Both the position numbers and the translations under genes were made by a program. From positions 380-64,379 of IMG/VR virus record IMGVR_UViG_3300045988_141926: a stretch of 64,000 nucleotides of DNA; one strand, written 5' to 3'. This document shows positions 31,253-46,885 of this stretch, in pieces. The notes beneath the pieces were generated by a model, which saw nothing but the letters and a program-made list of their open reading frames with translations, made no database searches and was not told the DNA's origin. This DNA is from a virus. The stretch's first letter is position 1. Each line of letters opens with the position of its first letter.

Positions 31253-31253
31253 A

Positions 31254-32450: not shown

Positions 32451-32492
32451 AATTTTCCTCCTTATATCTATCCAATAACAGGCATCTCAAAA

Positions 32493-33557
32493 TTATAACT
32501 GTTTGCCCTTGTTTTTGGCATTGCGGCATTTTTTACAAATACTATAATAACCATCTTTACTAGTTTTATTTTTGCTAAAATATTTATTATGTGCTAATTT
32601 AATTTGCCCACAGCGACTACATTTTTTATATTTACCTTTTGCTTTATGTAAATAGTAATCATATAGGTATTGGTCTTCAGCCGCTGAAGCGATTAATTTA
32701 GGAATTTTATTGCGCCATAAACTAGAAATATATTCTAAACTATGGGTAATATTAAATTCCTCTTGGATTCTCTTTTGGATGTCTATATTCTATAATCCAT
32801 CAATTTTATATTCAACTATTCTGTCATATAGTGGATAATCTTTAAGAGCGATGGTACATAAATTATCAAAATCTTCCATAATATACCATAAATCTCTTTC
32901 AAAATCTCCCCAACTATCTTGTTTTAAACGAGAATAATTACATAAAATTGCAGAACATACTCTAGGATCTAATAGTGAAATGCCATCCGGGATTGGATAA
33001 CCATCATCATCAAAAATGCAAGTTGTGTCCTCTAATGGAATAAAATTTCTTGAACGAGTAATTTTAGTCATAATAATTGGACGACGAACCGCATTTTTAA
33101 TAACATACTAATCTTTACGCATTTCAATAATAGCACGTTTAATTATAAATGCTTCGCGTCCTTCACTAACTCGTAATTTGGCTTCCCAAGTAGTAATGGC
33201 GTCTCTCAACTATTTTAAATGAGGTATTTCTTCTATATCTTTTTTAGTAATTGTAATTTTAGGCTAAAATATTGTATTTTTATTTTCAGTAATTAAATTA
33301 TAAATTCCATCTTCGCCATTCTCAAATTGGGAAACAAGACCTTCAAAAGATGTTTCACGTTTATTAACTGTTGCCATACGATTATCAGTTAATAGTTTAC
33401 GCTCCTTCTTCTCTTGTTTCTCCATACAAAGAATGATATAGTCCCCTAATATTTCTAAATATCGAGGAGAGGGGTCTGGGGTTTCCTCTAATATTTTCTT
33501 GACTAATTCATTTCTTTCTTCTGGAGTTTGTAAGGAATAATCTAATTTTATCATCAT
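32493..33557 (-). CDS. First gene of the late operon (~354 aa), C-terminal Zn-ribbon
   Basis: ATG at 33557 with SD GGAGGT. C-terminal CSRCGQ...CKKC motif. The frame continues through TAGs at 33264 and 32790. Confidence 0.4.
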
Positions 33558-33725
33558 TACCTCCAGATTTTTTTACGTCTTCATTATACAAAAAATTTTT
33601 CCAGGTGTCAAATTTTAATAAATGCATTTAAAAAATTTTTAAACGATACTATTAATTGGAAAAAATTTGACAATAAAAAAAATTTTTTGTATTATTATTA
33701 TAATAAAAAATAAAAGGAGAAGTTT
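33558..33725. promoter_or_regulatory. Divergent promoter region between the late operon and the plus-strand block
   Basis: ORF-free and AT-rich. Contains TTGACA...TATAAT upstream of the 33726 gene. Confidence 0.45.
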
Positions 33726-34124
33726 ATGGTAATTGCTATTGTTATATTAAGTATATTATTAATATTATCTATTATATATAATATATTGTTTACAAAGGGA
33801 GTAGTTAAACTTCTAGACCCTGAAACTATTGAACAAAAATATAATTTAATAGCAGATTATTATGAAGATGCAAATAATATTGAAGAAAGTTTCCCTTGTT
33901 GTTTACTATTACATCTTCAATTTAATGCGAAGGAATTCGCAAAAATCACAGACTTCTCTAATTATGAAAATTCTAATATAATCGCTTATTCAGTTTTGTC
34001 CAAGAGCCCACCACCGCCTGGATACGCAAATCAATTAGAGAAAGACGGCTCTATAAGAATATTAGTCCGCAATGTTCGAGTAAATAAATATAAGGATGGT
34101 GAATATTTTTGGGAGCCTATGTAA
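33726..34124 (+). CDS. Membrane-anchored hypothetical protein, 132 aa
   Basis: ORF with an SD. Hydrophobic N-terminus. Confidence 0.5.
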   Translation: MVIAIVILSILLILSIIYNILFTKGVVKLLDPETIEQKYNLIADYYEDANNIEESFPCCLLLHLQFNAKEFAKITDFSNYENSNIIAYSVLSKSPPPPGYANQLEKDGSIRILVRNVRVNKYKDGEYFWEPM

Positions 34125-34315
34125 TTGTTATCTTTTGGATAATCATTTCAGCATTAGTAATGTTTGAATATATTGATGCAATTCAAAGCGCCGGTGAAAA
34201 TAAATTAATTGTTTGTTTAATATTTTTTATTGGTGGCCCAATATTTGCTGCGAGTGATTTATTACAAAGAATTTTAGATATATTTTTACCGGAAGGGTGG
34301 AATGGTGATGACTGA
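34109..34315 (+). CDS. Small membrane protein, 68 aa
   Basis: Hydrophobic ORF. Confidence 0.4.
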   Translation: MGAYVIVIFWIIISALVMFEYIDAIQSAGENKLIVCLIFFIGGPIFAASDLLQRILDIFLPEGWNGDD

Positions 34316-34334
34316 AAAATAGATTAAATATATT

Positions 34335-34625
34335 TTGAAAAATTTTAAACGAGGCACTATTATTCTATTTATGGGTGTATCATTTAATCAATATATTAAT
34401 CTTGAACAATTAACTGAAGCAGGATATACTTGTATCCTATTGGGTGAAGGTCAAGATTATTGGCCCTATATTAAAAATAATATGATTATTTATGTGGATA
34501 ATATTGATACTAAAATAAATTGTTATCCACTACATTGTCCTATTTTTGTATATAATAAAAATCAAGTTATTAACGCGGAAGATAGAGATGTGCGCGTTTG
34601 GGCAGAAGTGTTAAAAGAGGAGTAA
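34335..34625 (+). CDS. Hypothetical protein
   Basis: ORF. Confidence 0.4.
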   Translation: MKNFKRGTIILFMGVSFNQYINLEQLTEAGYTCILLGEGQDYWPYIKNNMIIYVDNIDTKINCYPLHCPIFVYNKNQVINAEDRDVRVWAEVLKEE

Positions 34626-34626
34626 T

Positions 34627-34920
34627 ATGAAGATTTATAAATATTTAATTGAAACTCCAGGGTCAACTCATATTATGGACCATTTAACTGATATTGTATC
34701 TACTGGATTGGATGTAAATAATAATCCATGCGTATGGGCAGTTTATGATGAAAAGGCACCTGAAAAATATTTCCAGATTAATGCTGTTGGTACAGGTTGG
34801 GAATTGGATAAATATGTAAATAATAATGACAAGTATTTAGGAGTTATTAATGATGGTGAATATATTTGGCATATCATTAAGTCTTCTGGAGAAAAATGCC
34901 ATGTAATGGAGGAGAAGTGA
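34627..34920 (+). CDS. Hypothetical protein, 97 aa
   Basis: ORF. Confidence 0.45.
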   Translation: MKIYKYLIETPGSTHIMDHLTDIVSTGLDVNNNPCVWAVYDEKAPEKYFQINAVGTGWELDKYVNNNDKYLGVINDGEYIWHIIKSSGEKCHVMEEK

Positions 34921-34924
34921 TTTT

Positions 34925-35242
34925 ATGGAAGATGGAAAAAATTATTTTGATATTGTAATGCGAGAAGGCCAAGCAATAGTTCATAATGAAGGTTCTATTC
35001 ATTAGGTTGATAGTTTAGGCCGTCTTGTTTTTCCTAAAAATTTAAGACAAAAATATGGTATTGCTCCTGGCGACCGTATGGAATTTTATACTATTGAATA
35101 CAATGGTGAAATTTATGTTGGAGTGCGAGTGAGTAAACGATATGGTAGTAGAATAGAGTATTTACGCGCTAAAGAAGTATTAGATGATTTAGGAATTGAA
35201 ATTCCTCAAAAACTAACTGATGCTATTAATGGAGTAATATAA
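34925..35242 (+). CDS. AbrB/SpoVT-family DNA-binding protein with an in-frame TAG at ~35003
   Basis: VDSLGRLVFPKNLRQKYGIAPGDRMEF matches the AbrB swapped-hairpin domain. The TAG falls at the conserved RKVD position. Confidence 0.55.
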
Positions 35243-35244
35243 TT

Positions 35245-35388
35245 ATGCCTAAGTATAAAAGTTTTGGTAATGCACTTGCCGCTAAGATGCAGAAAAAAGC
35301 TAATTATTATGCTACTAAAGCAGTTCATCAAATTGTATGGGGTGAAAACCCTAAACGTGGTCGTCCTAAGAAGGAGAATAAAAAATGA
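35245..35388 (+). CDS. Small basic protein, 47 aa
   Basis: ATG after the TAA. Ends in TGA, overlapping the next ATG. Confidence 0.35.
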   Translation: MPKYKSFGNALAAKMQKKANYYATKAVHQIVWGENPKRGRPKKENKK

Positions 35389-35468
35389 TTCTTGAAGCAT
35401 TAGCATTAATAGGATTAATTTTATTTTTTCCTATTTGGTTTTTTGGTAGGAATAAAATTAAAAAATAA
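35385..35468 (+). CDS. 27-aa hydrophobic peptide
   Basis: MILEALALIGLILFFPIWFFGRNKIKK. Confidence 0.3.
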   Translation: MILEALALIGLILFFPIWFFGRNKIKK

Positions 35469-35530
35469 TTAAAAAAGTTCTACCGTTATCCAAATTGAAA
35501 AAAGTTCTACCGTTATCTGAATTGAAAAAA
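35469..35530. repeat. 2x ~25-bp direct repeat (aattgaaaaaagttctaccgttatc)
   Basis: Direct repeat. Confidence 0.6.
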
Positions 35531-35853
35531 GTTTTGGTGAGAGTTTGTACCAGCCAAACAAAAAAATAAAAATCAAAAAAAATTTTTTCCCGAAACCCAC
35601 CCCCCCCGGTCGGTTTTTATCTGAGAAAAAATCTGAACACTATCGAGGCCTTCTTGGGCTTGGCGCACGCGGAAAGGCTAGACCATCCCCAATACAGCCC
35701 CTCAACTCACAGGACCGCGAATGGCTGTCGCGGTCCTCATTCGCAATAAATACAAACTCCACAAAAAATCTCTCGCAAATTTGTGTATTCTGCCAATAGA
35801 CAAGCATCCTGAAATCTGGTATAATAGTATCATCAATCAAGGAGGAATAGTCT

Positions 35854-35949
35854 ATGTCTATCATCTACAAAGTCGTGCGCTTCATCACCGCGGTCGCTGT
35901 TGTCGCGGGCATTGGCATCCTGATGTGCCTCATCTGCCTCCCTCATTGA
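35854..35949 (+). CDS. 31-aa hydrophobic peptide with its own promoter, SD and terminator
   Basis: TAGACA-17-TATAAT, SD AAGGAGG, sequence MSIIYKVVRFITAVAVVAGIGILMCLICLPH. Terminator cctccctcattgagggaggtttttt. Confidence 0.45.
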   Translation: MSIIYKVVRFITAVAVVAGIGILMCLICLPH

Positions 35950-35977
35950 GGGAGGTTTTTTGTTGCCCTAAGATTGT

Positions 35978-36780
35978 TAAAAATTTAACAATGTAGCAAG
36001 ATTGTTAAAAGATTAACAATGTAGCGAGATTGTTAAAAATTTAACAATCACTCAACCAAGAGAAGACAAGGACACGCACGGCACAGTAGACAAGGCAGAG
36101 CGAGCCAACGAGCGAGCGACCAACAGACAAAGAGAACAACACACAACACAACACAATGATAGATACATTGTTAATGTATTAACAATGTAGTATAGTAGTA
36201 TGGTATGGTAGGGTATGGGTGGGGTGGGCTATGGGTAGTAGGTAGGGAGAGAGAGTAGGCCGACAATAAGAGAATGGAGCGCGCTTCCCACCGGTCGGGT
36301 ACACCGGGAACCGCGCACGATAAATCTAATGTAAGTATTCTATTTCTCTTTTGGGTTCATCATCGTTAACGGCCCTAATCGCCCAAGAATAAGCCCTCGC
36401 ACAATTGCCAAACAATACAGCGGCGCAGGCGCTGAACAGCGCGTATCCCGCAACACACAGCTCTCACAGAGGGGCGAGCAAGATTGTTAAAAATTTAACA
36501 ATGTGAGAGCCAAGAGCAAGAGAGTAAAGAGTGCGCTTGCACAGGTAGCAAGGAGGACACGCACGGCACAGTTGATACATTCGCTGACCGAGCAAGATTG
36601 TTAAAAATTTCACAATGTGTGGATGTGGTGAATGTGCTGTTTAATTGTTAAAAATTTCACATTCGCTGTTGGATGCCGAACACGGTCGCAACGCCCCAGA
36701 CTTCACCACATTAAAGTGTTAAAGAAAAAAAATCGCAAATCCGATTGTTAAAATAATCACAATCTTCGTCCCGAAAATAA
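35978..36780. repeat. ORF-free region with at least 8 copies of the 18-bp palindrome TTGTTAAA-NN-TTTAACAA, plus direct repeats and G-runs
   Basis: Copies at ~35981, 36008, 36035, 36166, 36483, 36596, 36644 and 36742, plus 37862. Also holds a T-depleted segment (36062-36155) and a C-depleted G-run segment (36188-36285). Confidence 0.7.
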
Positions 36781-36863
36781 ATAGGTTATTTTTGAAAAAA
36801 CCTCTTGACAAATTACCCCAAGTGTGCTACAATGATTACAGTAAAACAAAGGAGGACGATACA

Positions 36864-37100
36864 ATGTCTAACATCTATGGAGTCTGCTACACCACGAAAG
36901 AGCCTGTTGTCTACAACAGAGGGACACAGTGGGAGAAAACCTGTTCCGACTTCCTGTTCGTTCAGGCAAACAAGGACAATGGCACAAAGCTGGTGGACAA
37001 ACTGAACGCTATGCTTGCCGAGGGTGTGGAAAAATACGAACTGTTGGACATGACCAAGATTGACCATTTCTATCTTGACAAGTCCGAGGAAATGTATTAA
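36864..37100 (+). CDS. Hypothetical protein, 78 aa
   Basis: TTGACA-17-TACAAT, SD AAGGAGG. Confidence 0.55.
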   Translation: MSNIYGVCYTTKEPVVYNRGTQWEKTCSDFLFVQANKDNGTKLVDKLNAMLAEGVEKYELLDMTKIDHFYLDKSEEMY

Positions 37101-37113
37101 GGAGGAAATGACA

Positions 37114-37302
37114 ATGACACGCACTATCGCTAATACCTACATCTGTATCAACGCCGAGGGGCAGACCCTTTCCATCATCGCCCGCACGGGTAACGAAGCC
37201 CACAACATCGCAATAGGGTTTTTGCGGAAAGCCAACATCGTGAGCGTTCGCCGCGTATTCAAGTCCGGCAAGCTGGGCAAGGAAATTCTGAAAATCAAGT
37301 AA
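37114..37302 (+). CDS. Hypothetical protein, 62 aa
   Basis: SD GGAGG. Terminator at 37308-37334. Confidence 0.5.
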   Translation: MTRTIANTYICINAEGQTLSIIARTGNEAHNIAIGFLRKANIVSVRRVFKSGKLGKEILKIK

Positions 37303-37405
37303 AAAAATAGGGCGCAAGCCCTATTTTTTTTTTGAAAAAACTATTGACAAATCCCGCAACAGATGTTATAATGAATACAGAAATTAAGAAATGAGGTACA
37401 TAAAA

Positions 37406-37540
37406 ATGAAAAAAAGCACACAGGGTTGGTACAAATTCGCGGACGGCACACAAGCATGGTTTCACGGTCTGAGCGCGCAGGAGCGCAAGGTTGAGGAACG
37501 CAAGCACGGCAAAGTCGTGAGTTTCATCCCCACAGTATGA
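37406..37540 (+). CDS. Hypothetical protein, 44 aa
   Basis: Promoter with a conserved leader, SD GAGG, and a terminator. Confidence 0.45.
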   Translation: MKKSTQGWYKFADGTQAWFHGLSAQERKVEERKHGKVVSFIPTV

Positions 37541-37648
37541 CAGGGCGCAAGCCCTGTTATTTTTTTTTATTTTTTTTGAAAAAACTATTGACAAACACAA
37601 ATAAGCGTGTTATAATAAATACAGAAATTAAGAAATGAGGTATACAAA

Positions 37649-37837
37649 ATGAAGAACATCTATGAAATCGAGAACATCATCGACGGAATCTCCGCTGATG
37701 ACTGGGCTGGCATTTGTAATCTGATGGACTACTACTATCAGTCGAATTTCTCTGCTGACGCTGAACAGAGACTGGCAAGGGCAATCGCTCCTTACGGCTT
37801 GACCGTTGAGGAAATTCTGACCTGGGACGCTGAGTAA
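37649..37837 (+). CDS. Hypothetical protein, 62 aa
   Basis: Near-identical promoter and leader to the 37406 unit. Confidence 0.5.
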   Translation: MKNIYEIENIIDGISADDWAGICNLMDYYYQSNFSADAEQRLARAIAPYGLTVEEILTWDAE

Positions 37838-38067
37838 GCGTCCTATTTTTTTGCTGTTGGATTGTTAAAATTTTAACGAGCATCGTCGCGCTCATCAGGC
37901 ACGTGGCGCTCCGAAATATTATACCACAGCAGTCCACCAGTTGTCAAGAGAAAAATGCGAAAATTTCGCACAAAATTCGCCATCCCGATTTGTATAGTCT
38001 GCCAATAGACAAAATGAAATAAGCGTGTTATAATGAATACAACAAAACAACAAAGGAGATACACACT

Positions 38068-38376
38068 ATGATTAACATTCGTTCTATCCGCAAGTTGGGC
38101 AACAATGACGGGCTGACGCTCAAACTGGGCAAAAAGGTAAACTACAAATCCGGTTGGCAGGTTGCCACTGAGGGCATCGAGTGTAAGACCGCACAAGAAG
38201 CCATTGACGCGGTGAGAGACTACGGCGGCAACTGTGGCGTGTGGTTCAGTGAGGGCGTGTATTACATCGACAAAAGCAAGCGCGTGGCGACAAAGCGTGA
38301 AGCTATGGAAATCGGCAAAGCGTGTAATCAAATTTCCGTGCTGAAATGGGCGACTATGACGCTTGCCTACTGCTAA
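38068..38376 (+). CDS. Hypothetical protein, 102 aa
   Basis: Promoter, SD AAGGAG, and terminator at 38383-38406. Confidence 0.55.
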   Translation: MINIRSIRKLGNNDGLTLKLGKKVNYKSGWQVATEGIECKTAQEAIDAVRDYGGNCGVWFSEGVYYIDKSKRVATKREAMEIGKACNQISVLKWATMTLAYC

Positions 38377-38486
38377 AATAATAGGGCGAAAGCCCTATTA
38401 TTTTTTGAAAAAATTTTGAAAAAGGTATTGACAAATCCCGAAATAGGTGCTATAATTAAACCATCAAAAGAGAGGAGCTAAACGCT

Positions 38487-38678
38487 ATGACAAACTTTGA
38501 ACAGTATCTCGAAAACCTGATGGGCATGAAGAAAGCGGAAATCATCAACGAGGGCATCACCTGGGGCATCTGGGCGAACACCGAGGGCAACAAAGCCGAG
38601 CTGATGAAATGGAAAAAAGTTCTGCTGGCGCGGTGTCTCGCCGATAGGCTGGAAAGGCTGGAAAGGCGGGGCTACTAA
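38487..38678 (+). CDS. Hypothetical protein, 63 aa
   Basis: Promoter, SD GAGGAG, and a terminator. Confidence 0.5.
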   Translation: MTNFEQYLENLMGMKKAEIINEGITWGIWANTEGNKAELMKWKKVLLARCLADRLERLERRGY

Positions 38679-38744
38679 GACAAGGGCGAAAGCCCTTGTT
38701 TTTTTTATATGGCATTATGCCCATAATTCGGTTGAAAATTTTGG

Positions 38745-38940
38745 TCATTTTGCCTATTGACATTCTGCCCCATTTGTGTTATACTCGGTCGCGCGTCCAC
38801 GGCCCTGATGCGCGGAAATTCCATTATACCACAGCCCAGCCAATTTGTCAAGCATTTTGTGTTCGGTATTTTCAACAATTTTTTATCCCGAAATTTGTGC
38901 AATTTGACGGTTGACAACGCCCAGTAGGTGTGCTATACTT
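38745..38940. promoter_or_regulatory. Convergent-promoter palindromic module, copy 1
   Basis: Rightward TTGACA-17-TATACT. GC hairpin. Leftward TTGACA-17-TATAAT on the minus strand (plus-strand attata-N17-tgtcaa). Third rightward promoter TTGACA-17-TATACT. Confidence 0.6.
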
Positions 38941-38968
38941 ATACTATCAATTAAAGGAGGTCATTCAA

Positions 38969-39145
38969 ATGGCTACTATCGCAATCCTCGCAATCCTCGC
39001 CCTCGCTGGCTTCGCTGGCGTTCAGTGTGTCGGCGGGTATATGGTCTATCGTCAGACGCACGACTGGCACTTCCTCGTTGGCTCTATCCTATATGGCGTT
39101 GCCTGTATCGGTCTGGTGCGCTTCGTGTTCAATATGGGATGGTAA
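38969..39145 (+). CDS. 58-aa membrane protein with two transmembrane segments
   Basis: SD AAAGGAGG. Confidence 0.5.
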   Translation: MATIAILAILALAGFAGVQCVGGYMVYRQTHDWHFLVGSILYGVACIGLVRFVFNMGW

Positions 39146-39146
39146 T

Positions 39147-39470
39147 ATGGAAAACTACACTATGTCGAACCATCTGACAGAGGAGCGGGCTAACCGGCTC
39201 GCCCTCTTACAGGAATATCTCGGATATTCCGACCGCGTGATGATTGAGGTCATCGACCAGCGACAGACCGCTCGACTGCGTTTGCTCTCGACTGGTATTA
39301 TCCTCGTGCTGGACTTATATGAGAATTTCATCATCACCGCATACCCCGCAACTTTTGAACGGGCTGTCGCTATATACAAGAGTGCTGGCAAAAACCGTCT
39401 GCCCCAGCAGTTGGTTAAGCGCATCCGCAAGAATGAGGAACGCCACCCGGAATTTTATGTGGTAAAGTAG
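39147..39470 (+). CDS. Hypothetical protein, 108 aa. The only TAG-terminated ORF in the GC-rich block
   Basis: ORF. A TGA lies 5 codons after the TAG. Confidence 0.5.
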   Translation: MENYTMSNHLTEERANRLALLQEYLGYSDRVMIEVIDQRQTARLRLLSTGIILVLDLYENFIITAYPATFERAVAIYKSAGKNRLPQQLVKRIRKNEERHPEFYVVK

Positions 39471-39541
39471 AAAATTGGGGCTTGACAACAAGCCCCATTT
39501 CTGCTATAATGAGTATAACAAAGCAAGGGAGGACGAAAAAA

Positions 39542-39868
39542 ATGTCTGATGTAATTATCGCTGGTCTGCTTATGGCTGGTCTGATGGGTCTGCCTGTTGG
39601 TCTGATTATCGCCATTAGCCGCGACCACTGGTGGAGTAAGGTACTGGCTCTCATTATTTCCTGTGCTATCTTCTTCGGCTTCGGCTGTGCGTTCGGGCAA
39701 GAGAGTGTCAATGACCGCGACACATTTAACAACGGTGTATGTGTCAAGTGTGGTGGCGAATATCGTTTCAGTTCCTCTACTCGCTACCGTATGAGCGAAA
39801 CATTTTACTACACCTGTCAAGACTGCGGTTGGACAATCGAAACCAACTGCTTGATGAACAAAAATTAA
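39542..39868 (+). CDS. Membrane-anchored Zn-ribbon protein, 109 aa
   Basis: N-terminal transmembrane segment, CxxC-N25-CxxC. The promoter's -35 lies in a terminator loop. Confidence 0.5.
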   Translation: MSDVIIAGLLMAGLMGLPVGLIIAISRDHWWSKVLALIISCAIFFGFGCAFGQESVNDRDTFNNGVCVKCGGEYRFSSSTRYRMSETFYYTCQDCGWTIETNCLMNKN

Positions 39869-39937
39869 GATAGGGGCTTGACAAACAAGCCCTTATCTGT
39901 TATAATAGATAATACCAAGAGAAAGGAGAATATCAAA

Positions 39938-40168
39938 ATGGAATTTATTGAGTCCCCTATCTATGTCAAGTTGAGTGATGAAGAGCGCAATTCACTCCAT
40001 GAGGTTTATGTCATTCTGAATGACCTTGTAAACGCCGCCGAAGAGAATGACTGCGAGTATGTGGGCAATCCGTTGACTGGTGATGGCTATGGGCGGTTTG
40101 ATGTGAGCCAAGCCGCTGAAATTTGCCGAGTGTTCGCACCTGCTGAAAAGTTAGAAATCAGTAATTAA
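39938..40168 (+). CDS. Hypothetical protein, 76 aa (paralog A)
   Basis: Promoter and SD. Confidence 0.5.
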   Translation: MEFIESPIYVKLSDEERNSLHEVYVILNDLVNAAEENDCEYVGNPLTGDGYGRFDVSQAAEICRVFAPAEKLEISN

Positions 40169-40182
40169 AGGAGGGAAACAAA

Positions 40183-40410
40183 ATGGAAGTTATTAAAGCC
40201 CCCATCTATGTCAAAATGACAGAGAAAGAGCGGAAAACCCTGCGCGATGCCTATGACATTCTGAATGAATTGTATAACGTCATCGCCGATAATGACTGCG
40301 ACTATGTGGGCGATACTTGCGGGAATACCTATGACAGAGTGGACGTCGCGCTTACGGCGAATGTGCTTCAAATGCTTGCCCCCACTGAAAAAGTGGAAAT
40401 CGGTAAATAA
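40183..40410 (+). CDS. Hypothetical protein, 75 aa (tandem paralog B)
   Basis: About 45% identical to the 39938 product. Confidence 0.5.
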   Translation: MEVIKAPIYVKMTEKERKTLRDAYDILNELYNVIADNDCDYVGDTCGNTYDRVDVALTANVLQMLAPTEKVEIGK

Positions 40411-40498
40411 AAAAATGTGGGAGAAATCCCACATTTTTTATTGACAACAACCAGTAGGTGTGCTATAATGTAGACAATGAAACAAGGAGGTAAAAACA

Positions 40499-40705
40499 AT
40501 GACTGCATTTGAAATTCGAGAGGAACTGGCGAACCGCTACAATTTAGAAATCCGCAATGTCTGCTGTTATCACTGTCAATACTGGGGCTATAACTGCGGT
40601 AAGGTGCTGAACTCTCAGTGTGAGAGCCGATGCACCAAGAGAATGAAAGACTGGACGTGGGCAAGCCAGTATTGCCGTGGCTTCGTTCCGAAATCGGGAA
40701 AGTAA
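40499..40705 (+). CDS. Cys-rich protein, 68 aa
   Basis: Promoter and SD. Confidence 0.45.
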   Translation: MTAFEIREELANRYNLEIRNVCCYHCQYWGYNCGKVLNSQCESRCTKRMKDWTWASQYCRGFVPKSGK

Positions 40706-40729
40706 ATCAAATAAAAAGGAGATACACTT

Positions 40730-40978
40730 ATGAAAATCATTCTCATTATTTACATCATTGGTATTGTTCTCTACTGGCTGGGTATCGCAAGCATCATTTC
40801 GACTATGAAGAAAAACAAGGAACAGGCGCAAGAAGTATTCAAGAACCGGGGTGAAAGCAAGCGCAGTCCGTTCTCTAACTGGTTGACCGTTATCACCGGC
40901 TCAATCATTCCGATTTTTCATTACGCCGTAGCATTCCTCTACATTTTCAAACCGGATTTTATTTTTGAAAAGGAATAA
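40730..40978 (+). CDS. Membrane protein, 82 aa
   Basis: Two hydrophobic segments. Confidence 0.45.
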   Translation: MKIILIIYIIGIVLYWLGIASIISTMKKNKEQAQEVFKNRGESKRSPFSNWLTVITGSIIPIFHYAVAFLYIFKPDFIFEKE

Positions 40979-41034
40979 AAATCATTTGGGCTGGATGAAC
41001 AAAAATCCAGCCCAATTTTTGTATAATTTTCCAC

Positions 41035-41170
41035 TTGACATTTTCGGCCGCGCGCTCACGAATGTGGCGCCCGGCATTTTTGTCAATAGGTATACTTCAC
41101 AAATTTTTCGCCGCAATTTTGTGCATTTTGACGATTGACTTCTATCCCGTAATGTAGTACAATGGCTATA
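41035..41170. promoter_or_regulatory. Degenerate copy of the convergent-promoter module (copy 2)
   Basis: Retains the GC hairpin, the leftward -35 tgtcaa and the third promoter (TTGACT-17-TACAAT). Palindrome arms are lost. Confidence 0.4.
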
Positions 41171-41192
41171 CTGAAACAAGGAGGTATGTATT

Positions 41193-41411
41193 ATGGATTT
41201 AAAGCAAGCGTATCAGGCGGTTTTCGCAGACCTGCGTGAATGCCCTATGTTCCACGGGCGGTATGACGCCATCAATGGCAATCCCTACTTTATGTCCGGC
41301 ATTGAGACGGTTATGGAGGTAATCGCCAATCGCGCCTATGATGATGATTTTGCCGAGAAGTTCTCCAATGAATTTACTGACAATATGTTAAGGAGTAGAG
41401 AAAGTGTTTAA
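41193..41411 (+). CDS. Hypothetical protein, 72 aa
   Basis: ORF with an SD. Confidence 0.5.
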   Translation: MDLKQAYQAVFADLRECPMFHGRYDAINGNPYFMSGIETVMEVIANRAYDDDFAEKFSNEFTDNMLRSRESV

Positions 41412-41580
41412 TATTGTATTGGCACTAATCGCCGTAGGCGGGTGCGCGTGGGCGATTATCCGCTCTATTCTCTGGCGAAATGAAAAATACCTATCCACCG
41501 AGGAGCAAATCCGCGAAATGATGGATGAAACGTCTATTTCCACTGAAACGCTGTGGAATCTGTTTGACAGACTAAACTGA
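41404..41580 (+). CDS. Membrane-anchored 58-aa protein (GTG start)
   Basis: Overlaps the upstream stop. Confidence 0.3.
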   Translation: MFNIVLALIAVGGCAWAIIRSILWRNEKYLSTEEQIREMMDETSISTETLWNLFDRLN

Positions 41581-41594
41581 AAGGAGTAAGAACA

Positions 41595-41966
41595 ATGTTT
41601 GATTTTCAGAAACTGACGCTCAAAAAATGGGCGCGCAATTTCCTCATTCTGTGTGGTTTTATCCTGCTGGTGTATGGTATGTTCAAATCCACATTCGTGC
41701 TGTATGCGGCTGTCGCCATTCTGACCCTGACTATCGCGGGCGCGTGCGCGTATACTCTGATAAGTTCTATCCGCTGGGATTGGCGGTTGCGTGGCAAGCT
41801 GACAGAGGACGAGTATAAGGCATACCAATCCTGTGATAGATGGTTTGGTTTTCAAGATGATAAATACCTGCCGACTGATGAACAAATTGTATGGATGGCT
41901 GAAAACACAAACAATTCCTGTGATACCTTATGGAGTATGTATAATAAACTGACAGAGGGGCATTAA
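41595..41966 (+). CDS. Membrane protein, 123 aa
   Basis: SD GGAG, two transmembrane segments, and a terminator. Confidence 0.5.
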   Translation: MFDFQKLTLKKWARNFLILCGFILLVYGMFKSTFVLYAAVAILTLTIAGACAYTLISSIRWDWRLRGKLTEDEYKAYQSCDRWFGFQDDKYLPTDEQIVWMAENTNNSCDTLWSMYNKLTEGH

Positions 41967-42112
41967 CGCCCCTCTTGTCAGATTTAGTTCTGACTAACTG
42001 CACGGAACAAAAAACTAATCCTGTGAGAATTTAACTACGGCAAAAATTTTTCTTGACATTTTCAAATAAATGTGGTAGTATTATAATAGAAATTAAGAAA
42101 GGAATTGATACT

Positions 42113-42313
42113 ATGAACATCCCCTCTAAGCTGAAACAAGTTGCTAATGAGTTGGAGCAACTGTCCATCGAAATCGCCGCAGAAAAGAAAAACCTGTCCA
42201 ATAGCGAGGACAAGCAAGCCGCTCAAAATTTGAGTGATGATTTGTTTGAAATCCAGTCTCACCTGCGCACATCTATGTACTGGCTGGCGGAAGCTATGTT
42301 CGGGGAGGATTGA
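42113..42313 (+). CDS. Hypothetical protein, 66 aa
   Basis: TTGACA promoter, SD. Confidence 0.5.
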   Translation: MNIPSKLKQVANELEQLSIEIAAEKKNLSNSEDKQAAQNLSDDLFEIQSHLRTSMYWLAEAMFGED

Positions 42314-42789
42314 TGACTATGAACGCAATTATCCTATTCATTGTCTGCACCGCTGTGAATGTGGTGCTGTCCACCATCAAATCCATTCTCACGGTCAAGG
42401 GCAACAAGTGGGTAGCCGCTGGTATCAATGCGCTGACCTATGGCTTCTATTCCTATGTCATTATCCTGACCAACATTGACGGCGTTTCTACGCTGGCAAA
42501 GATGGGCATTACCGCCGCCTGTAATTTCATCGGCGTGCTGGCGGTCAAATGGGTGGAGGAGTTGGCGCGCAAGGAAAAATTGTGGAAGATTGAAATGACT
42601 GTCCCCACAAAGTATCGTGCCGCTGTTGATTTTGACCTGCGAGACATTCCCCACTCATACATTGAGATTAGCAACAAACACACGTTATTCAATTTCTATT
42701 GTGCCACGCAAGCCGAGAGCAAAAAGGTCAAGGACATTGTGGCGCAGTATGGCGCAAAATATTTCGTAGCAGAAAGCAAAAATCTGTAA
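42310..42789 (+). CDS. Membrane protein, 159 aa
   Basis: Four predicted transmembrane segments and a soluble C-terminus. Confidence 0.5.
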   Translation: MMTMNAIILFIVCTAVNVVLSTIKSILTVKGNKWVAAGINALTYGFYSYVIILTNIDGVSTLAKMGITAACNFIGVLAVKWVEELARKEKLWKIEMTVPTKYRAAVDFDLRDIPHSYIEISNKHTLFNFYCATQAESKKVKDIVAQYGAKYFVAESKNL

Positions 42790-42855
42790 AATAGGGGTTG
42801 ACAAATCAGCCCCTCTGTGTTAGAATGGTATCATCAAATAAGGGAGGACAACAAA

Positions 42856-43005
42856 ATGGAAATGATTAAAGTTTTCAATGACCACACTGGCGAAATCCTT
42901 GAAAAGACGTTCGTAGACCCCGCGGACGCGGACGACTTCGAGTTCATTCTCGACTTCCTTGAAGCGAGATACGAACGCTACCACAACGGCGAACAAATCT
43001 ACTAA
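42856..43005 (+). CDS. Hypothetical protein, 49 aa
   Basis: The promoter's -35 lies in a terminator loop. SD AGGGAGG. Confidence 0.4.
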   Translation: MEMIKVFNDHTGEILEKTFVDPADADDFEFILDFLEARYERYHNGEQIY

Positions 43006-43018
43006 GGAGGGCGCGACA

Positions 43019-43216
43019 ATGGAAATCAAAGATGTGTACTACAATGTTGAGTGGTGGGGCATAACCACTTGGGGCGAACGCTTCACTAATAGCGAGTGGT
43101 TCAAGGACGAAAACGAAACTCTGTCGTTCATCGCAAATGACCTGGCAAATGACCCGCTTGTTCGTGGAGCAACCTTCACCACACACAAAACCATCGTATT
43201 TAAGAGAGGTGAATAA
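43019..43216 (+). CDS. Hypothetical protein, 65 aa
   Basis: SD GGAGG. Confidence 0.45.
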   Translation: MEIKDVYYNVEWWGITTWGERFTNSEWFKDENETLSFIANDLANDPLVRGATFTTHKTIVFKRGE

Positions 43217-43217
43217 A

Positions 43218-43427
43218 ATGATTACTATTCTGATAATGGTTATTGCCCTTGGCATTTCGTTCCTGTTTACTGCTGGGCTGGTCTGGCTTCTCTGCTGGCT
43301 TCTCCCTATGATTGGCATCGCGTCCATCGGCTCTATCGCCATCGTGTTTTCGTGGAAACTGGCGTTGGTCATTTGGCTCATTATCGCACTCCTACGCTCT
43401 ATTTTCAGCATCACTGTCAAGAAGTAA
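43218..43427 (+). CDS. Membrane protein, 69 aa
   Basis: Hydrophobic. Confidence 0.45.
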   Translation: MITILIMVIALGISFLFTAGLVWLLCWLLPMIGIASIGSIAIVFSWKLALVIWLIIALLRSIFSITVKK

Positions 43428-43469
43428 TAATTGAAAAATCTCCCAAATTTAGGAGATTTTTTTTGTTCA

Positions 43470-43690
43470 TTTTACCTATTGACAAACGCCCCTATTTGTG
43501 CTATACTCAGCCGAGCGCCCACGGTCCTGGCGCTCGAAATTTCCATTATACACCCTGCCAGCAATTTTGTCAATAGGTAAATTGAACAAATTTGACCAAA
43601 CACACATCCCGAAAGTTTGTGCAAAATAACCAACGAAAATTTGACAATTCTAAAAATTTTTTGTATAATAATGTCAATGACATAGATGGG
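43470..43690. promoter_or_regulatory. Convergent-promoter palindromic module, copy 3
   Basis: Same architecture with an 8-bp GC stem. Confidence 0.6.
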
Positions 43691-43704
43691 AGGATGGTCT
43701 AAAA

Positions 43705-44448
43705 ATGGACTATTACGTTTACATAACAACAAATAAAATTAACGGCAAACAATACATTGGGTAGCACAAAGGACGCCCAGACGATAACTATTTAGGTAGT
43801 GGAACAACTATACTAAAAGCAATCAGCAAGTATGGCAAGGAGAATTTTACTAAAAGTGTTTTGTGTTTTTGTGAAACAAGAGAAGAAGCCGACGCAAAAG
43901 AACGAGAATACATCCAATTATACAACGCAGTAAATGATGATAATTTTTATAATAATGCGGAAGGTGGCACAGGTGGAGACGGCTGGCGCAGTTGTCAAAG
44001 ATGGCTGGAACAACATCCAGAAGAAGCGCAAGCCATGTATAAACGAAATGGGGAACATTTGCGGAAATGGTGTGATACTCATCCAGAAGAATACAAAGAA
44101 AAATGTATTAAGCCAATGTTAGAAGCAAGTCATAAGCGATTAAAAGAAAATCCTGAACTCGTTAAACAACAAGTAATAAGATTAAATCAGGCAAAAGAAA
44201 AATGGCAACAAGAACATCCAGAAGAGCACCAAGCACAAGTAAATGAATGGCGAAAGGCTGGAAGTATTGCTAATAGTAAAGCAGTAATTTGTTTAACTAC
44301 TAATCGTGTATTTGAGTCTCAATCAGCGGCGGCTCGATACTATGGCGTTCCACAAAGCAACATTAGTAAATGTTTGAAAGGAGAGCGTAAAAGCGCGGGA
44401 GTAGACCCTGATACGGGTGAAAAATTATTTTGGGAATTTGTAAAATAA
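43705..44448 (+). CDS. GIY-YIG homing endonuclease with a NUMOD-like C-terminal helix-turn-helix. In-frame TAG at ~43762
   Basis: YVYITTNKINGKQYIG-TAG-HKG matches the GIY-YIG motif. C-terminal region ...QSNISKCLKGERKSAG. Confidence 0.7.
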
Positions 44449-44512
44449 CTCTTGACAAATAGGAGAATAGGCGTTATAATGTAGATACAATAAAACGAAG
44501 GAGACAAAAAGT

Positions 44513-44959
44513 ATGACTATTTACCTCGATCTCGATGGGACGGTGATTGATTTTTACGGCGTCCCCAACTGGTTGGAGTGCCTCGAAGCACAGGACAGCA
44601 CACCATATCGTGTGGCAAAGCCCCTTGTGCATCTGTCCACCCTCGCCCGCTATCTGAACCGCTTACAGGCGCGGGGCTACAATATCGGCATCATCAGTTG
44701 GCTGTCCAAGAGCGGAACGGATAAGTTCAACGCCGAAGTAGCCGAGGTCAAGCGGGAATGGCTGGCAAAGCATCTCCCCAGCGTTCAGTGGGACGAAATC
44801 CATATTGTCCCCTATGGCGTCCCCAAGTCCAACTGTGCGACCTGCCCCAACGCGATTTTGTTCGATGATGAACAGCGAAATCTCAATGAGTGGACGGCAA
44901 ACACCCACAATATGGCATACAACGCCAACCTGCTTATGGAAATCCTGCGAAACCTGTAA
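44513..44959 (+). CDS. HAD-superfamily 5'-nucleotidase-like phosphatase, 148 aa
   Basis: DLDGTV motif I and a C-terminal FDDE. Confidence 0.55.
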   Translation: MTIYLDLDGTVIDFYGVPNWLECLEAQDSTPYRVAKPLVHLSTLARYLNRLQARGYNIGIISWLSKSGTDKFNAEVAEVKREWLAKHLPSVQWDEIHIVPYGVPKSNCATCPNAILFDDEQRNLNEWTANTHNMAYNANLLMEILRNL

Positions 44960-45071
44960 AAAAAATAGCAAATAGGGGTTGACAATCTCACCCCTATTTG
45001 CTATAATATGTAATGTAATTAAGGTATGGGACACGATGGTAAACCCAACCAAGAGAAAAGGAGAATGAACA

Positions 45072-45728
45072 ATGAAAAATATCTACTGCACGCTGGACAC
45101 TGAAACGGTAGGCGGCGCGGCTCACCCCACGGGAATGTATAATGTGGGCGCGATTATCCACGACCGCAAGGGCGAAATCCTTGCCACCACTTCCCTGCTG
45201 GTGATGGAGCATTATGACGAAATCGCCACCGATGGCTATGCCAAGAAGAATTTTCCGGTATATGCCGAACGGCTCAAAGCTGGTGAAATCTCCGCTATCG
45301 CCACGGAGCGCGAAGCCTATGAGGTAATCAAAAACCTGTGCGACCATTACGGCGTTCGCTATGTGATGGCATACAATTCCGGTTTTGACTTCTGCAAGAC
45401 CTGTTTCCGCGACCTGCTGGACACTTTCGAGTTCATCGACCTGTATCTCATGGCACTGGAAACTATCACCCACAAAAAGTCCTATGCGGACTATTGCCGA
45501 GAAAATGGCAAGCGTTCCAAGAATGGCAAGACCTGTGCAACCTCTGTCGAAGCGGTGTATGGTTATCTCCACGGCAATCCTGACTTTGAGGAAGAACACA
45601 CCGCCCTGTCTGACGCTATGCAGGAAATGGAAATTTTCCTTGCTTGTCAGAAGATGCACAAGCGATACACCAAGAACGTCCACGCATGGGACGCGCCCTT
45701 TGAGGTAAAATGTTTTCCCAAGTTTTGA
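45072..45728 (+). CDS. DnaQ-like (DEDDh) 3'-5' exonuclease, 218 aa
   Basis: Exo I LDTET, Exo II YNSGFD, Exo III HTALSDA. Confidence 0.65.
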   Translation: MKNIYCTLDTETVGGAAHPTGMYNVGAIIHDRKGEILATTSLLVMEHYDEIATDGYAKKNFPVYAERLKAGEISAIATEREAYEVIKNLCDHYGVRYVMAYNSGFDFCKTCFRDLLDTFEFIDLYLMALETITHKKSYADYCRENGKRSKNGKTCATSVEAVYGYLHGNPDFEEEHTALSDAMQEMEIFLACQKMHKRYTKNVHAWDAPFEVKCFPKF

Positions 45729-45795
45729 GATTGGGGCTTGACAGCCCCTTTCTCATGTGGTATAATGGCTATACTAAGACAAGGAGGTAAGCGAA

Positions 45796-46008
45796 ATGCC
45801 TAAGCAGGTTCTTTTCAAGAGCGACCATTCAGATGGCGTTCAGGCAGGTATTCAGGTAGATAATGGAAATGTTATCTGTGCCTGTTGTGGTGGAGTATTC
45901 GAGGGCGAGGAGACTACCATTCTCCACGAGTTCGACTATTGGGTTGACTTTTCCGAATGGATTGGCGACCCTGACCTGACTGAATACCGCAAGCACGACA
46001 CCCCGTAA
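45796..46008 (+). CDS. Hypothetical protein, 70 aa
   Basis: Promoter, SD. Confidence 0.5.
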   Translation: MPKQVLFKSDHSDGVQAGIQVDNGNVICACCGGVFEGEETTILHEFDYWVDFSEWIGDPDLTEYRKHDTP

Positions 46009-46122
46009 AAAAAGTTTGGAATGGGGGTTGACAACGCCCCCATTCCATGCTATAATAACATTACAAATTCAAGGTAGGGGAAACGATGGTAAGCCCCACC
46101 AATAGAAAAGGAGAAAAAAACT

Positions 46123-46656
46123 ATGAAAGCTCGCTATGCTAACCTCAGAAATTTCAACCGCACGGTCAAGACCTACAAGTGGCTGGTAGACCTGTTCGGA
46201 AACAAGGAGTTCACTTCCGAGGACTTCTCCAAGGCAAAGCACGACTACCGGCGGTACACCTACAATTCCCTGTCGTTCCTGCGGGATGAGGGTATCATCA
46301 AGGTGGTACGCACCGAACAGACCACCAAGGAAATCAAGCTCGACCCGTGGGACGCGGAAAGCTGGATGATTGACAAGAATGGCAACGCCCTGATGACCGA
46401 GTACAACTGGATGCGTTTGCCGGAAGTGGCACAGTCCGCTCTGCTGGCTCTGAATGGTCAGGACTTCCGCGTTGAGCGCAAGGACACCAAGACCGTGGAA
46501 AAGGAGAAGCTTATTTACACGGTCAATCCCGCTGGTATGTTGAACTGGCGCAAGGGCTATGGGCGTCTGTTGGCTATGAGAGCTGACGCGCTGGCGGGCG
46601 AAATCGTCAGACTGAACGAAAAGCGGGACGCATTCCTTGCTTGTCAGATGGACTAA
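46123..46656 (+). CDS. Hypothetical protein, 177 aa
   Basis: Conserved structured leader. Confidence 0.55.
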   Translation: MKARYANLRNFNRTVKTYKWLVDLFGNKEFTSEDFSKAKHDYRRYTYNSLSFLRDEGIIKVVRTEQTTKEIKLDPWDAESWMIDKNGNALMTEYNWMRLPEVAQSALLALNGQDFRVERKDTKTVEKEKLIYTVNPAGMLNWRKGYGRLLAMRADALAGEIVRLNEKRDAFLACQMD

Positions 46657-46689
46657 AAAAATGAGGGGATTTTCCCCTCATTTTTTGTG

Positions 46690-46885
46690 CATTTTTACCT
46701 ATTGACAAATGCGCCTGGGTGTGGTATAATGGCCGGCCGATTTCGCGCGTCTCGGCCGGAATTCACCATTATACACCCCGTCAGCAATTTTGTCAAGAGT
46801 TTTTTTACACAAATTTTTTTATTTATTTTTCCCGAAACTTGTGCAGTCTGACTATTGCAATCTGCGCTCACCTATGGTACAATAC
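46690..46885. promoter_or_regulatory. Convergent-promoter palindromic module, copy 4
   Basis: TTGACA-17-TATAAT, GC hairpin with an 8-bp stem, leftward attata-N17-tgtcaa, third promoter. Confidence 0.6.

What the first reader, a model, noticed from the sequence alone, without database searches (positions are those of the whole stretch)
34925..44448. TAG recoding extends into the GC-rich plus-strand block: AbrB-like and GIY-YIG genes with TAG at conserved motif positions
The AbrB-like gene has TAG where AbrB/SpoVT has RKVD. The GIY-YIG endonuclease has TAG right after YIG, normally YIG-Q/S-T. Both genes read through into well-conserved C-terminal domains. These motif positions help identify the inserted amino acid, and they show the 50% GC block is translated in the same TAG-suppressing context. 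Across about 60 plus-strand ORFs, only one (39470) terminates with TAG.
Basis: partly seen in the sequence, partly recalled or inferred. Interest (0 to 1): 0.7.

Follow-up and report, generated by a model that had tools for sequence, protein, structure and literature searches.

The report
Amber-as-glutamine phage; early genes avoid TAG
This is part of a gut phage that reads the stop codon TAG as glutamine, and the two flagged genes really need that reading, but they are AT-rich outliers: the GC-rich early genes around them avoid TAG entirely, as already described for such phages.

Summary
The AbrB-like gene (34925-35242) has an in-frame TAG at 35003-35005. The GIY-YIG homing-endonuclease gene (43705-44448) has one at 43762-43764. 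Both TAGs lie inside the conserved domain. Both are kept in relatives diverged to 60-69% protein identity, with purifying selection on both sides. TAG means glutamine: 119 of 120 endonuclease homologues have Q there, and TAG swaps with CAA/CAG between lineages. A third plus-strand gene (34308-34625) also carries a conserved TAG.

These three genes are among the six most AT-rich of 61 plus-strand genes (GC3 0.12-0.27). They share the codon usage of the heavily recoded late module (173 in-frame TAGs). The 46 truly GC-rich genes hold one TAG, at a natural C-terminus, where about 38 would be expected (P about 6e-13). TAG is also almost never their terminator. The GC-rich block carries 25 perfect sigma-70 consensus promoters. 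It therefore looks like an early region that works under both readings of TAG.

The phage is a distant relative of Phage Phass-1, in the published "code 15 clade". It is a new member of a known kind. No suppressor tRNA lies in the window.

The parts
34925..35242 (+). AbrB/SpoVT/MazE-type swapped-hairpin DNA-binding protein gene, 105 codons. Has an in-frame TAG at codon 27 (35003-35005), read as Gln. AT-rich (GC 0.32, GC3 0.12).
   Evidence: The TAG is conserved in L001, L082 and L083-L088. The L083 clade has a second TAG where the window has CAA. Omega is 0.13-0.34 upstream and 0.06-0.45 downstream of the TAG.
43705..44448 (+). GIY-YIG homing endonuclease gene with a C-terminal I-HmuI/NUMOD-like DNA-binding domain, 247 codons. 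Has an in-frame TAG at codon 20 (43762-43764) in 'YIG-TAG-H', read as Gln. It is an AT-rich island (GC 0.38, GC3 0.27, CAA 13 to CAG 1) inside the GC-rich block.
   Evidence: The TAG is kept in L001, L091, L089/L090 and L198. L092 has CAR there but a TAG four codons upstream, where the window has CAA. TAG-free homologues (L002, L003, L006, L199) have CAG/CAA there. Omega is about 0.09 upstream and 0.07-0.17 downstream, with dS above 2.
34308..34625 (+). Third plus-strand gene with a sense TAG (codon 5, 34320-34322; 'MTEK-TAG-IKYILKNF'). 105 codons, function unknown, GC3 0.18.
   Evidence: The ATG, Shine-Dalgarno site and TAG are conserved in window, L001, L082 and L083. L083 has a second TAG at codon 49 where the window has Q. 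Omega is 0.10-0.27.
33726..35388 (+). AT-rich five-gene plus-strand cluster (GC 0.27-0.35, GC3 0.12-0.24). Holds two of the three TAG-bearing plus-strand genes. Its composition matches the late module.
   Evidence: A sigma-70-like promoter, TTGACA-17-TATTAT, lies at 33667-33695.
36864..52827 (+). GC-rich block of about 34 small genes (GC3 0.45-0.87), apart from the AT-rich GIY-YIG island. No internal sense TAG. Dense in perfect TTGACA-N17-TATAAT promoters and intrinsic terminators. Inferred to be the early region.
39147..39485 (+). Real GC-rich gene (GC3 0.63) missed by simple gene calling. TAG at 39468-39470 sits at the natural C-terminus and is backed by TGA at 39483-39485. It is the only TAG in a GC-rich gene and is harmless under either reading.
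   Evidence: 15 of 16 substitutions against L001 fall at codon position 3. The L083 homologue ends one codon later with an ordinary stop.
1..33572 (-). Late and structural module (AT-rich, GC 0.30, GC3 0.18). Includes tape measure (8494-16785, 56 TAG), portal, large terminase, virion proteins and a phage sigma factor. In total 173 in-frame TAG, which is 35% of TAG+CAA+CAG. Stops are 18 TAA, 1 TGA and 0 TAG.
   Evidence: TAG interchanges with CAA/CAG in 11 of 12 changes against L082 and L083.
32493..33557 (-). Phage sigma-factor-like gene (phrog_5767) at the head of the late module. Has 4 in-frame TAG. It is preceded by a perfect sigma-70 consensus promoter at 33611-33583.
43641..43669 (+). Perfect TTGACA-17-TATAAT promoter directly upstream of the GIY-YIG gene. 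Its AT-rich spacer resembles that of the sigma-factor gene promoter.

Best explanation
The window is part of a large siphovirus-type gut phage from the SPbeta-like / Phass-1 group that uses genetic code 15 (TAG = glutamine). Its genes fall into two codon-usage classes.

In the AT-rich class, TAG behaves as an ordinary synonymous Gln codon. This class contains the late structural module, a small minus-strand island at 53-55 kb, and six plus-strand genes. Three of those six are the AbrB-like regulator, the gene at 34308 and the GIY-YIG homing endonuclease, and those three carry a TAG and need TAG read as Gln to give full-length, functional proteins.

The GC-rich class consists of small plus-strand genes. 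In the 36.8-52.8 kb block most have their own consensus host-type promoter and terminator. TAG is excluded from this class as a sense codon and almost never used as a stop, so these genes give the same protein whether TAG is read as stop or as Gln.

Inferred mechanism: the GC-rich genes are expressed first by the unmodified host machinery. A phage suppressor tRNA-Gln(CUA), encoded outside this window, then opens translation of the AT-rich genes. Those include the late sigma factor, which is itself behind a host-type promoter.

Shown here: the TAG positions, their conservation, the Gln identity, and the class split. Inferred: the timing and the suppressor.
For: Code 15:
- The longest ORF rises from 381 to 2764 aa when TAG is treated as sense.
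- The late genes hold 173 in-frame TAG and no TAG stop.
- 11 of 12 TAG changes against L082 and L083 are to or from CAA/CAG.
- 119 of 120 endonuclease homologues have Q at the TAG column. TAG-free homologues encode it as CAG/CAA.

The three genes are functional:
- Their TAGs are conserved across lineages.
- Omega is well below 1 on both sides of each TAG.

Class split:
- GC3 against TAG density gives Spearman -0.70, p 2e-13.
- In the AT class, TAG/CAG is 5.2, close to TTG/CTG at 7.7. In the GC class, TTG/CTG of 0.42 predicts 38 TAG and 1 is observed.
- The split replicates in three relatives.

Early character of the GC block:
- 27 perfect sigma-70 promoters are found against 0.14 expected. 25 of them lie within 33583-52364.

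Family:
- The capsid-region protein is 50% identical to Phage Phass-1 OQ749652, filed under 'Caudoviricetes code 15 clade'.
- Phass-1 carries three tRNA-Sup-CTA genes.
- Phass-1 shows the same concentration of TAG in AT-rich genes.
- The published model has early genes in the standard code and late genes recoded (bioRxiv 10.1101/2021.08.26.457843).
Against: - No tRNA of any kind was found in the 64-kb window or in the held pieces of close relatives. The suppressor is therefore assumed by analogy with Phass-1.
- No expression data exist. 'Early' and 'late' rest on promoter consensus and gene content only.
- The three TAG-bearing plus-strand genes sit behind host-type promoters, so they do not fit a simple late-transcription class.
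- Phass-1 has some TAGs in moderately GC-rich ORFs, so the class split is not absolute across the family.
- The gene list is my own (Shine-Dalgarno plus ORF packing). A few small genes may be wrong.
Confidence: 0.8

Rival explanations
1. One reading: the whole plus-strand GC-rich block is translated in the same TAG-suppressing context as the late genes. TAG would be a freely usable Gln codon there, and the two genes would be examples of it.
For: Two or three plus-strand genes need TAG read-through. TAG is a terminator in at most 1 of 61 plus-strand genes. About 6 would be expected from off-frame trinucleotide frequencies, giving P about 0.01.
Against: The TAG-bearing genes are AT-rich outliers, not GC-rich genes. 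GC-rich genes have 1 TAG against about 38 expected. Relatives have 0 against 6-36 expected. The single TAG in a GC-rich gene sits at a natural C-terminus.
Confidence: 0.1
2. The two genes are pseudogenes or split genes created by nonsense mutations. Only the downstream fragments, or nothing, is made.
For: Under the standard code both are interrupted (one search lists only 35078-35242 and 43861-44448).
Against: The same TAG is kept in lineages diverged to 60-69% protein identity with synonymous sites saturated. Omega is 0.09-0.34 upstream as well as downstream. The reading frame is unbroken. TAG alternates with CAA between lineages. The fragments would lack the GIY and YIG motifs, or the first strands of the AbrB fold.
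Confidence: 0.02
3. TAG is decoded as an amino acid other than glutamine. Candidates are Lys or Arg, as the AbrB 'RKVD' alignment would suggest, or pyrrolysine.
For: AbrB and SpoVT have K/R at the aligned position. ARAGORN labels the CUA tRNAs of Phass-1 'Pyl', but only because of the anticodon.
Against: 11 of 12 TAG substitutions are with CAA/CAG. Q is near-invariant at the endonuclease site. TAG aligns with CAA at three further sites in the three genes. The Phass-1 authors assign their suppressor tRNA to Gln (PMC10607447). The Q-like codon fraction of late genes is 4.5% with TAG included and only 2.9% without it.
Confidence: 0.03
4. The GC-rich block is foreign to the phage: an assembly chimera, host DNA or a recent acquisition. 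Its lack of TAG would then say nothing about the phage's translation.
For: The GC contrast within one contig is very large (0.28 against 0.46; GC3 0.18 against 0.6).
Against: The junction and the bimodal composition recur in independent assemblies (L001, L082-L088, L089, L198) and in the complete Phass-1 genome. A TAG-bearing endonuclease and an AT-rich TAG-bearing minus-strand island are nested inside the block. Gene content is phage-like.
Confidence: 0.03

Closest known systems
Phage Phass-1 (OQ749652) and the proposed Phassvirus / 'Caudoviricetes code 15 clade', within the wider group that includes Enterococcus phage EF1 (Babkin et al. 2023, PMC10607447)
   Same: - Human or animal gut origin, and a very long tape-measure gene.
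- TAG = Gln in terminase, portal, tape measure and tail genes.
- TAG is concentrated in AT-rich genes.
- The capsid-region protein is 50% identical.
- Relatives carry the YonD_N and YonG_N domains typical of SPbeta-like phages.
   Different: - No nucleotide-level similarity.
- The AbrB-like, 34308, sigma-factor and GIY-YIG genes have no homologue in Phass-1.
- The likely genome size is 158-175 kb, judged from relatives' contigs, against 136 kb.
- No suppressor tRNA lies in the part seen here.
Stop-codon-recoded gut phages with partial recoding: crAss-like, Lak, and the Garnet, Topaz and other clades (Ivanova 2014; Yutin 2021; Borges et al. 2021/2022; Peters 2022)
   Same: - In-frame TAG is concentrated in structural and late genes.
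- Early genes are compatible with the standard code.
- Low GC is linked to the loss of TAG stops.
- The proposed switch is a phage suppressor tRNA.
   Different: - A different phage lineage (SPbeta-like, probably infecting Bacillota).
- Here the split is also a sharp within-genome codon-usage bimodality (GC3 0.18 against 0.6). I did not find this described in the two papers I read.
- TAG-bearing genes also sit behind consensus host-type promoters.
Free-standing GIY-YIG homing endonucleases of phages (SegE and I-TevI type, with NUMOD or I-HmuI-like DNA-binding domains)
   Same: - An N-terminal GIY-YIG domain plus a C-terminal NUMOD-like helix-turn-helix.
- Its own promoter.
- An AT-rich island next to a conserved gene (an NT5C-like nucleotidase) in every relative.
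   Different: - The catalytic-domain Gln after YIG is encoded by TAG in at least five code-15 lineages. The enzyme can therefore be made only where TAG is suppressed.
AbrB / SpoVT / MazE swapped-hairpin family (PF04014)
   Same: - The sequence matches the N-terminal DNA-binding domain of AbrB, Abh and SpoVT.
- The conserved 'LGR-[VI]-[VI]-P' segment is present.
   Different: - A 25-residue N-terminal extension and an unrelated C-terminal 40 residues.
- His-Gln(TAG) where AbrB has Arg-Lys.
- No toxin partner identified next to it (the downstream 47-codon gene was not searched), so it is not evidently an antitoxin.

Membership tests
Genetic code 15 (TAG = Gln) phage | Long conserved genes are open only if TAG is a sense codon | tested here: met
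   With TAG as sense, the longest ORF rises from 381 to 2764 aa. ORF coverage of 1-34000 rises from 17.7 to 33.6 kb. The late genes hold 173 in-frame TAG.
Genetic code 15 (TAG = Gln) phage | TAG aligns with glutamine in homologues | tested here: met
   Q is at the TAG column in 119 of 120 endonuclease homologues. TAG-free homologues have CAG/CAA there. 11 of 12 TAG changes against L082 and L083 are with CAA/CAG.
Genetic code 15 (TAG = Gln) phage | TAG is not used as a terminator | tested here: met
   0 of 19 late genes and at most 1 of 61 plus-strand genes reach a terminal TAG.
Genetic code 15 (TAG = Gln) phage | Phage-encoded suppressor tRNA with anticodon CUA | tested here: inconclusive
   No tRNA in the window or in the held pieces of close relatives. 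However, the window is probably well under half of a genome whose relatives' contigs run 158-175 kb. The relative Phass-1 has three such tRNAs.
Phass-1 / SPbeta-like phage group | Homology of the structural module | tested here: met
   The capsid-region protein is 50% identical to Phass-1 and 41% to Enterococcus phage EF1. Portal matches phrog_2739 and a virion protein matches phrog_2729. Relatives carry YonD_N and YonG_N.
GIY-YIG homing endonuclease | GIY-YIG catalytic domain plus a DNA-binding domain | tested here: met
   PF01541 scores 34.3 bits (cut-off 22.6) over residues 3-75. PF22083 scores 27.6 bits (cut-off 27) over 201-231. phrog_314 scores 1e-40.
GIY-YIG homing endonuclease | Site-specific DNA cleavage and homing | not testable with these tools
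   Only the conserved position next to the NT5C-like gene in relatives is seen.
AbrB/SpoVT/MazE swapped-hairpin family | SpoVT-AbrB domain above the Pfam threshold, alignable to solved members | tested here: met
   PF04014 scores 29.3 bits (cut-off 24.7). AbrB 1YFB scores 2.6e-4 and SpoVT 2RO5 scores 2.8e-4.
Type II toxin-antitoxin system (MazE-like antitoxin) | An adjacent cognate toxin gene | tested here: inconclusive
   The neighbours are a DUF7352 gene and a 47-codon gene. No toxin domain was seen, but the 47-residue protein was not searched.

The most novel reading that the evidence does not exclude
TAG codons may act as translational gates on genes that the host polymerase can transcribe from the start of infection. 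Those genes are the late sigma factor (4 TAG, behind a perfect consensus promoter), the AbrB-like regulator and the homing endonuclease. Together with the two sharply separated codon-usage classes, this would form a code-based timer. GC-rich, TAG-free genes would run on host machinery. AT-rich, TAG-bearing genes would switch on only once the phage suppressor tRNA accumulates. On this reading, the retention of 'YIG-TAG-H' in five diverged endonuclease lineages, and its replacement by a TAG four codons upstream in a sixth, would reflect selection for a gate rather than drift.
Probability: 0.3. Interest if true: 0.55.

Novelty: new member of a known kind. Interest (0 to 1): 0.3.

Why it matters
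The result gives a clean example, replicated in relatives, of how a code-15 phage partitions its genome. One gene class treats TAG as a normal Gln codon. The other avoids TAG in both roles. That is what a mid-infection code switch predicts.

It also shows that strand or map position is a poor guide to which genes are recoded. Codon-usage class is a better one, which helps annotation of such phages.

The TAG-dependent homing endonuclease is a mobile gene locked to TAG-suppressing genomes.

None of this changes the established picture of recoded phages.

Tried and rejected
- Megablast of the early block and of the tape-measure gene against GenBank phages found nothing.
- ARAGORN and Rfam on the window found nothing. 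No suppressor tRNA was found in the relatives' pieces either; the only tRNA was a tRNA-Lys in L089.
- IMG/VR and the JGI/ENA metagenome scans gave only one close relative (L093). The remaining hits were distant endonucleases.
- The genome-contig scan found relatives only in MAG bins of mutually inconsistent taxonomy. No host could be assigned.
- Phass-1 has no homologue of the sigma factor, the AbrB-like gene, the 34308 gene or the endonuclease, so it could not be used for these genes.
- ORF 35721-35996, which would end in TAG, was rejected as a gene. Substitutions against L001 show no codon-position bias anywhere in 35389-36863.
- ORFs 38501-38914, 42866-43216 and 49326-49754, which contain in-frame TAG, were not kept as genes. 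The TAG either lies upstream of the start that has a Shine-Dalgarno site, or the ORF lies on the repeated intergenic element.
- I tested whether the TAGs cluster near N-termini, as a 'gate' would. The fractional positions are 0.05, 0.26 and 0.08, which is suggestive. But relatives have extra TAGs elsewhere, and the sigma factor's four TAGs are spread out, so this is not established.
- Retention of TAG at saturated dS cannot be read as selection. TAG is reachable from CAA only through the rare CAG codon.

Full report
**What the window is.** The window has two compositional domains. Positions 1-34000 are about 28% GC and positions 36800-52800 are about 44-50% GC. When TAG is treated as a sense codon, the longest ORF rises from 381 to 2764 aa. 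ORF coverage of the AT-rich half nearly doubles.

The minus strand of 1-33572 is a late module. It contains a tape-measure-sized gene (8494-16785, 56 in-frame TAG), a portal (phrog_2739), a large terminase, a virion protein (phrog_2729) and a sigma-factor-like gene (phrog_5767). Its capsid-region protein is 50% identical to Phage Phass-1 (OQ749652) and 41% to Enterococcus phage EF1. Phass-1 is filed by NCBI under 'Caudoviricetes code 15 clade'. Relatives carry the SPbeta-type YonD_N and YonG_N domains. Phass-1 was described as a TAG = Gln phage with three tRNA-Sup-CTA genes (PMC10607447). There is no nucleotide-level match to any GenBank phage.

**The observation.**
- The AbrB-like ORF runs 34925-35242, with its only TAG at 35003-35005 (codon 27).
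- The GIY-YIG ORF runs 43705-44448, with its TAG at 43762-43764 (codon 20).
- Pfam domains span both TAGs. PF04014 covers residues 26-65. PF01541 covers residues 3-75, and an I-HmuI NUMOD-like domain covers 201-231.
- Against solved AbrB and SpoVT, the TAG falls on the K of 'VRKVD' and the second R of 'VRRID'.
- In the endonuclease the TAG follows YIG. 119 of 120 database homologues have Q there. TAG-free homologues encode it as CAG or CAA.

**Not pseudogenes, and TAG is glutamine.** Independent assemblies of relatives keep the same TAGs.
- For the AbrB-like gene these are L001, L082 and the L083-L088 clade, which is only 60% identical in protein.
- For the endonuclease these are L001, L091, L089/L090 and L198, at 64-88% identity.
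- L092 has CAR at that site but a TAG four codons upstream, where the window has CAA.
- The L083 clade has extra TAGs in the AbrB-like gene and in the 34308 gene. Both align with Gln codons of the window.
- Nei-Gojobori omega is 0.06-0.45 on both sides of the TAGs. Synonymous sites are saturated for the endonuclease.
- In about 2,800 aligned late-gene codons per relative, 11 of 12 TAG changes are to or from CAA/CAG.

A third plus-strand gene, 34308-34625, has a conserved TAG at codon 5.

Per-gene composition shows that the TAG-bearing plus-strand genes are not GC-rich genes.
- The AbrB-like gene and the 34308 gene belong to a five-gene AT-rich cluster at 33726-35388 (GC3 0.12-0.24). This cluster precedes the GC-rich block.
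- The endonuclease is an AT-rich island (GC3 0.27; CAA 13, CAG 1) among neighbours with GC3 0.55-0.68.
- All three are among the six lowest-GC3 genes of 61 plus-strand genes (Mann-Whitney p 0.003).
- Over all 84 genes, GC3 and TAG density correlate at rho -0.70 (p 2e-13).

Composition alone does not explain this. TAG and CAG differ only by T or C at the first codon position, as do TTG and CTG.
- In AT-class genes, TAG/CAG is 5.2 and TTG/CTG is 7.7. TAG therefore behaves as an ordinary synonymous codon.
- In GC-class genes, TTG/CTG is 0.42. With 89 CAG, that predicts about 38 TAG. One is observed (binomial P 6e-13).
- The same test on relatives gives 0 observed against 6, 12 and 36 expected.

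That single TAG (39468-39470) ends a real gene. 15 of 16 substitutions against L001 fall at third codon positions. The TAG sits at the natural C-terminus and is followed by TGA four codons later. The L083 homologue stops one codon further on.

**Terminators.** My plus-strand gene set was called with TAG as sense, so the fair statement is as follows. Only 1 of 61 genes has a TAG near its end. About 6 would be expected from off-frame trinucleotide frequencies, giving P about 0.01. TAG is therefore avoided in GC-rich genes both as a sense codon and as a stop.

**Early character of the GC-rich block.** The window holds 27 perfect TTGACA-N16-18-TATAAT sites, against 0.14 expected by chance. 25 of them lie within 33583-52364. 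Most have an extended -10 TG, and many are paired with intrinsic terminators. One perfect promoter (33611-33583, minus strand) precedes the TAG-bearing sigma-factor gene. A perfect promoter at 43641-43669 precedes the endonuclease. An 11-of-12 site at 33667-33695 precedes the AT-rich plus-strand cluster.

The simplest reading is the published model. Genes compatible with the standard code are expressed first. A suppressor tRNA then opens the recoded genes. Here the recoded set includes regulators transcribed from host-type promoters. The timing and the suppressor are inferred. No tRNA lies in the window or in the held relatives' fragments.

**Family context.** Phass-1 also concentrates TAG in AT-rich genes. 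Its tape-measure gene has GC3 0.22 and 110 TAG, and other genes with GC3 0.14-0.27 carry further TAGs. However, it also has some TAG in moderately GC-rich ORFs. A relative whose held genes lack in-frame TAG (L199) has a GC-rich sigma-factor orthologue (GC3 0.59, 0 TAG) and a TAG-free endonuclease. The code-15 relative L198 has AT-rich late genes that carry TAG.

**Verdict.** The genes are functional and TAG is Gln. The claim that recoding extends into the GC-rich block should be replaced. Recoding follows the AT-rich codon-usage class wherever such genes lie. The GC-rich early genes are kept free of TAG. This is a new, distant member of a published group showing a known phenomenon.

Noticed in passing
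window 38720-38880, 43440-43600, 46665-46825, 48290-48450, 49595-49755, partial copy 52115-52275: A repeated intergenic element of about 130 nt. It consists of the upstream gene's terminator, a plus-strand consensus promoter, a central GC-rich hairpin of about 11 bp with compensatory changes, and then a perfect consensus promoter on the minus strand facing the first one. The two face-to-face promoters are about 45 nt apart. It is also present in relative L001. Function unknown.
   Followed up: partly
window 33583-52364: 25 of the window's 27 perfect TTGACA-N17-TATAAT promoters (0.14 expected by chance) lie here, almost one per small gene. None lies in the second GC-rich plus-strand block at 55.5-63.9 kb, and only one in the late module (17439-17467, minus strand).
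   Followed up: partly
window 35389-36863: About 1.4 kb between the AT-rich cluster and the GC-rich block shows no codon-position bias in substitutions against L001, so it is probably non-coding. It holds repeats of about 30 nt (35970-35994, 36475-36505, 36589-36619) and a 37-column indel. There is no Rfam match.
   Followed up: partly
window 18614-19717 and 23123-25855, minus strand: Four late genes, probably highly expressed (a virion protein and capsid-region proteins), are GC-richer than their neighbours (0.36-0.41). They prefer CAG over CAA and carry 0-1 TAG, while adjacent late genes carry many.
   Followed up: no
window 53245-55205, minus strand: A small AT-rich island of three minus-strand genes (GC about 0.31) with 4 in-frame TAG, lying between the two GC-rich plus-strand blocks. 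No Pfam match.
   Followed up: partly
window 29152-29523, minus strand: A second homing-endonuclease-like gene (phrog_9084 and phrog_559, 118 aa, 2 in-frame TAG) sits between the portal and terminase genes of the late module.
   Followed up: no
window 39938-40168 and 40183-40410: Two adjacent paralogous small genes (MEFIESPIYVKLSDEERNSL... and MEVIKAPIYVKMTEKERKTL...). This is a tandem duplication in the early block, and each copy is preceded by a perfect promoter.
   Followed up: no
L199 (ERZ28614706 scaffold_35, 140.9 kb) against L198 (ERZ15609738 NODE_49, 175.6 kb): A relative with no in-frame TAG in the two genes checked (L199) has a GC-rich sigma-factor orthologue (GC3 0.59). The code-15 relative L198 has AT-rich late genes (GC3 0.20-0.24). 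Within this family, AT-enrichment of late genes seems to accompany recoding, based on one comparison.
   Followed up: partly
loci L176-L197 (genome contigs): Contigs of this phage family (up to 158-175 kb) are binned into MAGs labelled Mollicutes, Clostridium, Lachnospiraceae, Bacteroidales, Treponema, Gastranaerophilales and others. These are evidently mis-binned phage genomes, so the labels give no host information.
   Followed up: no
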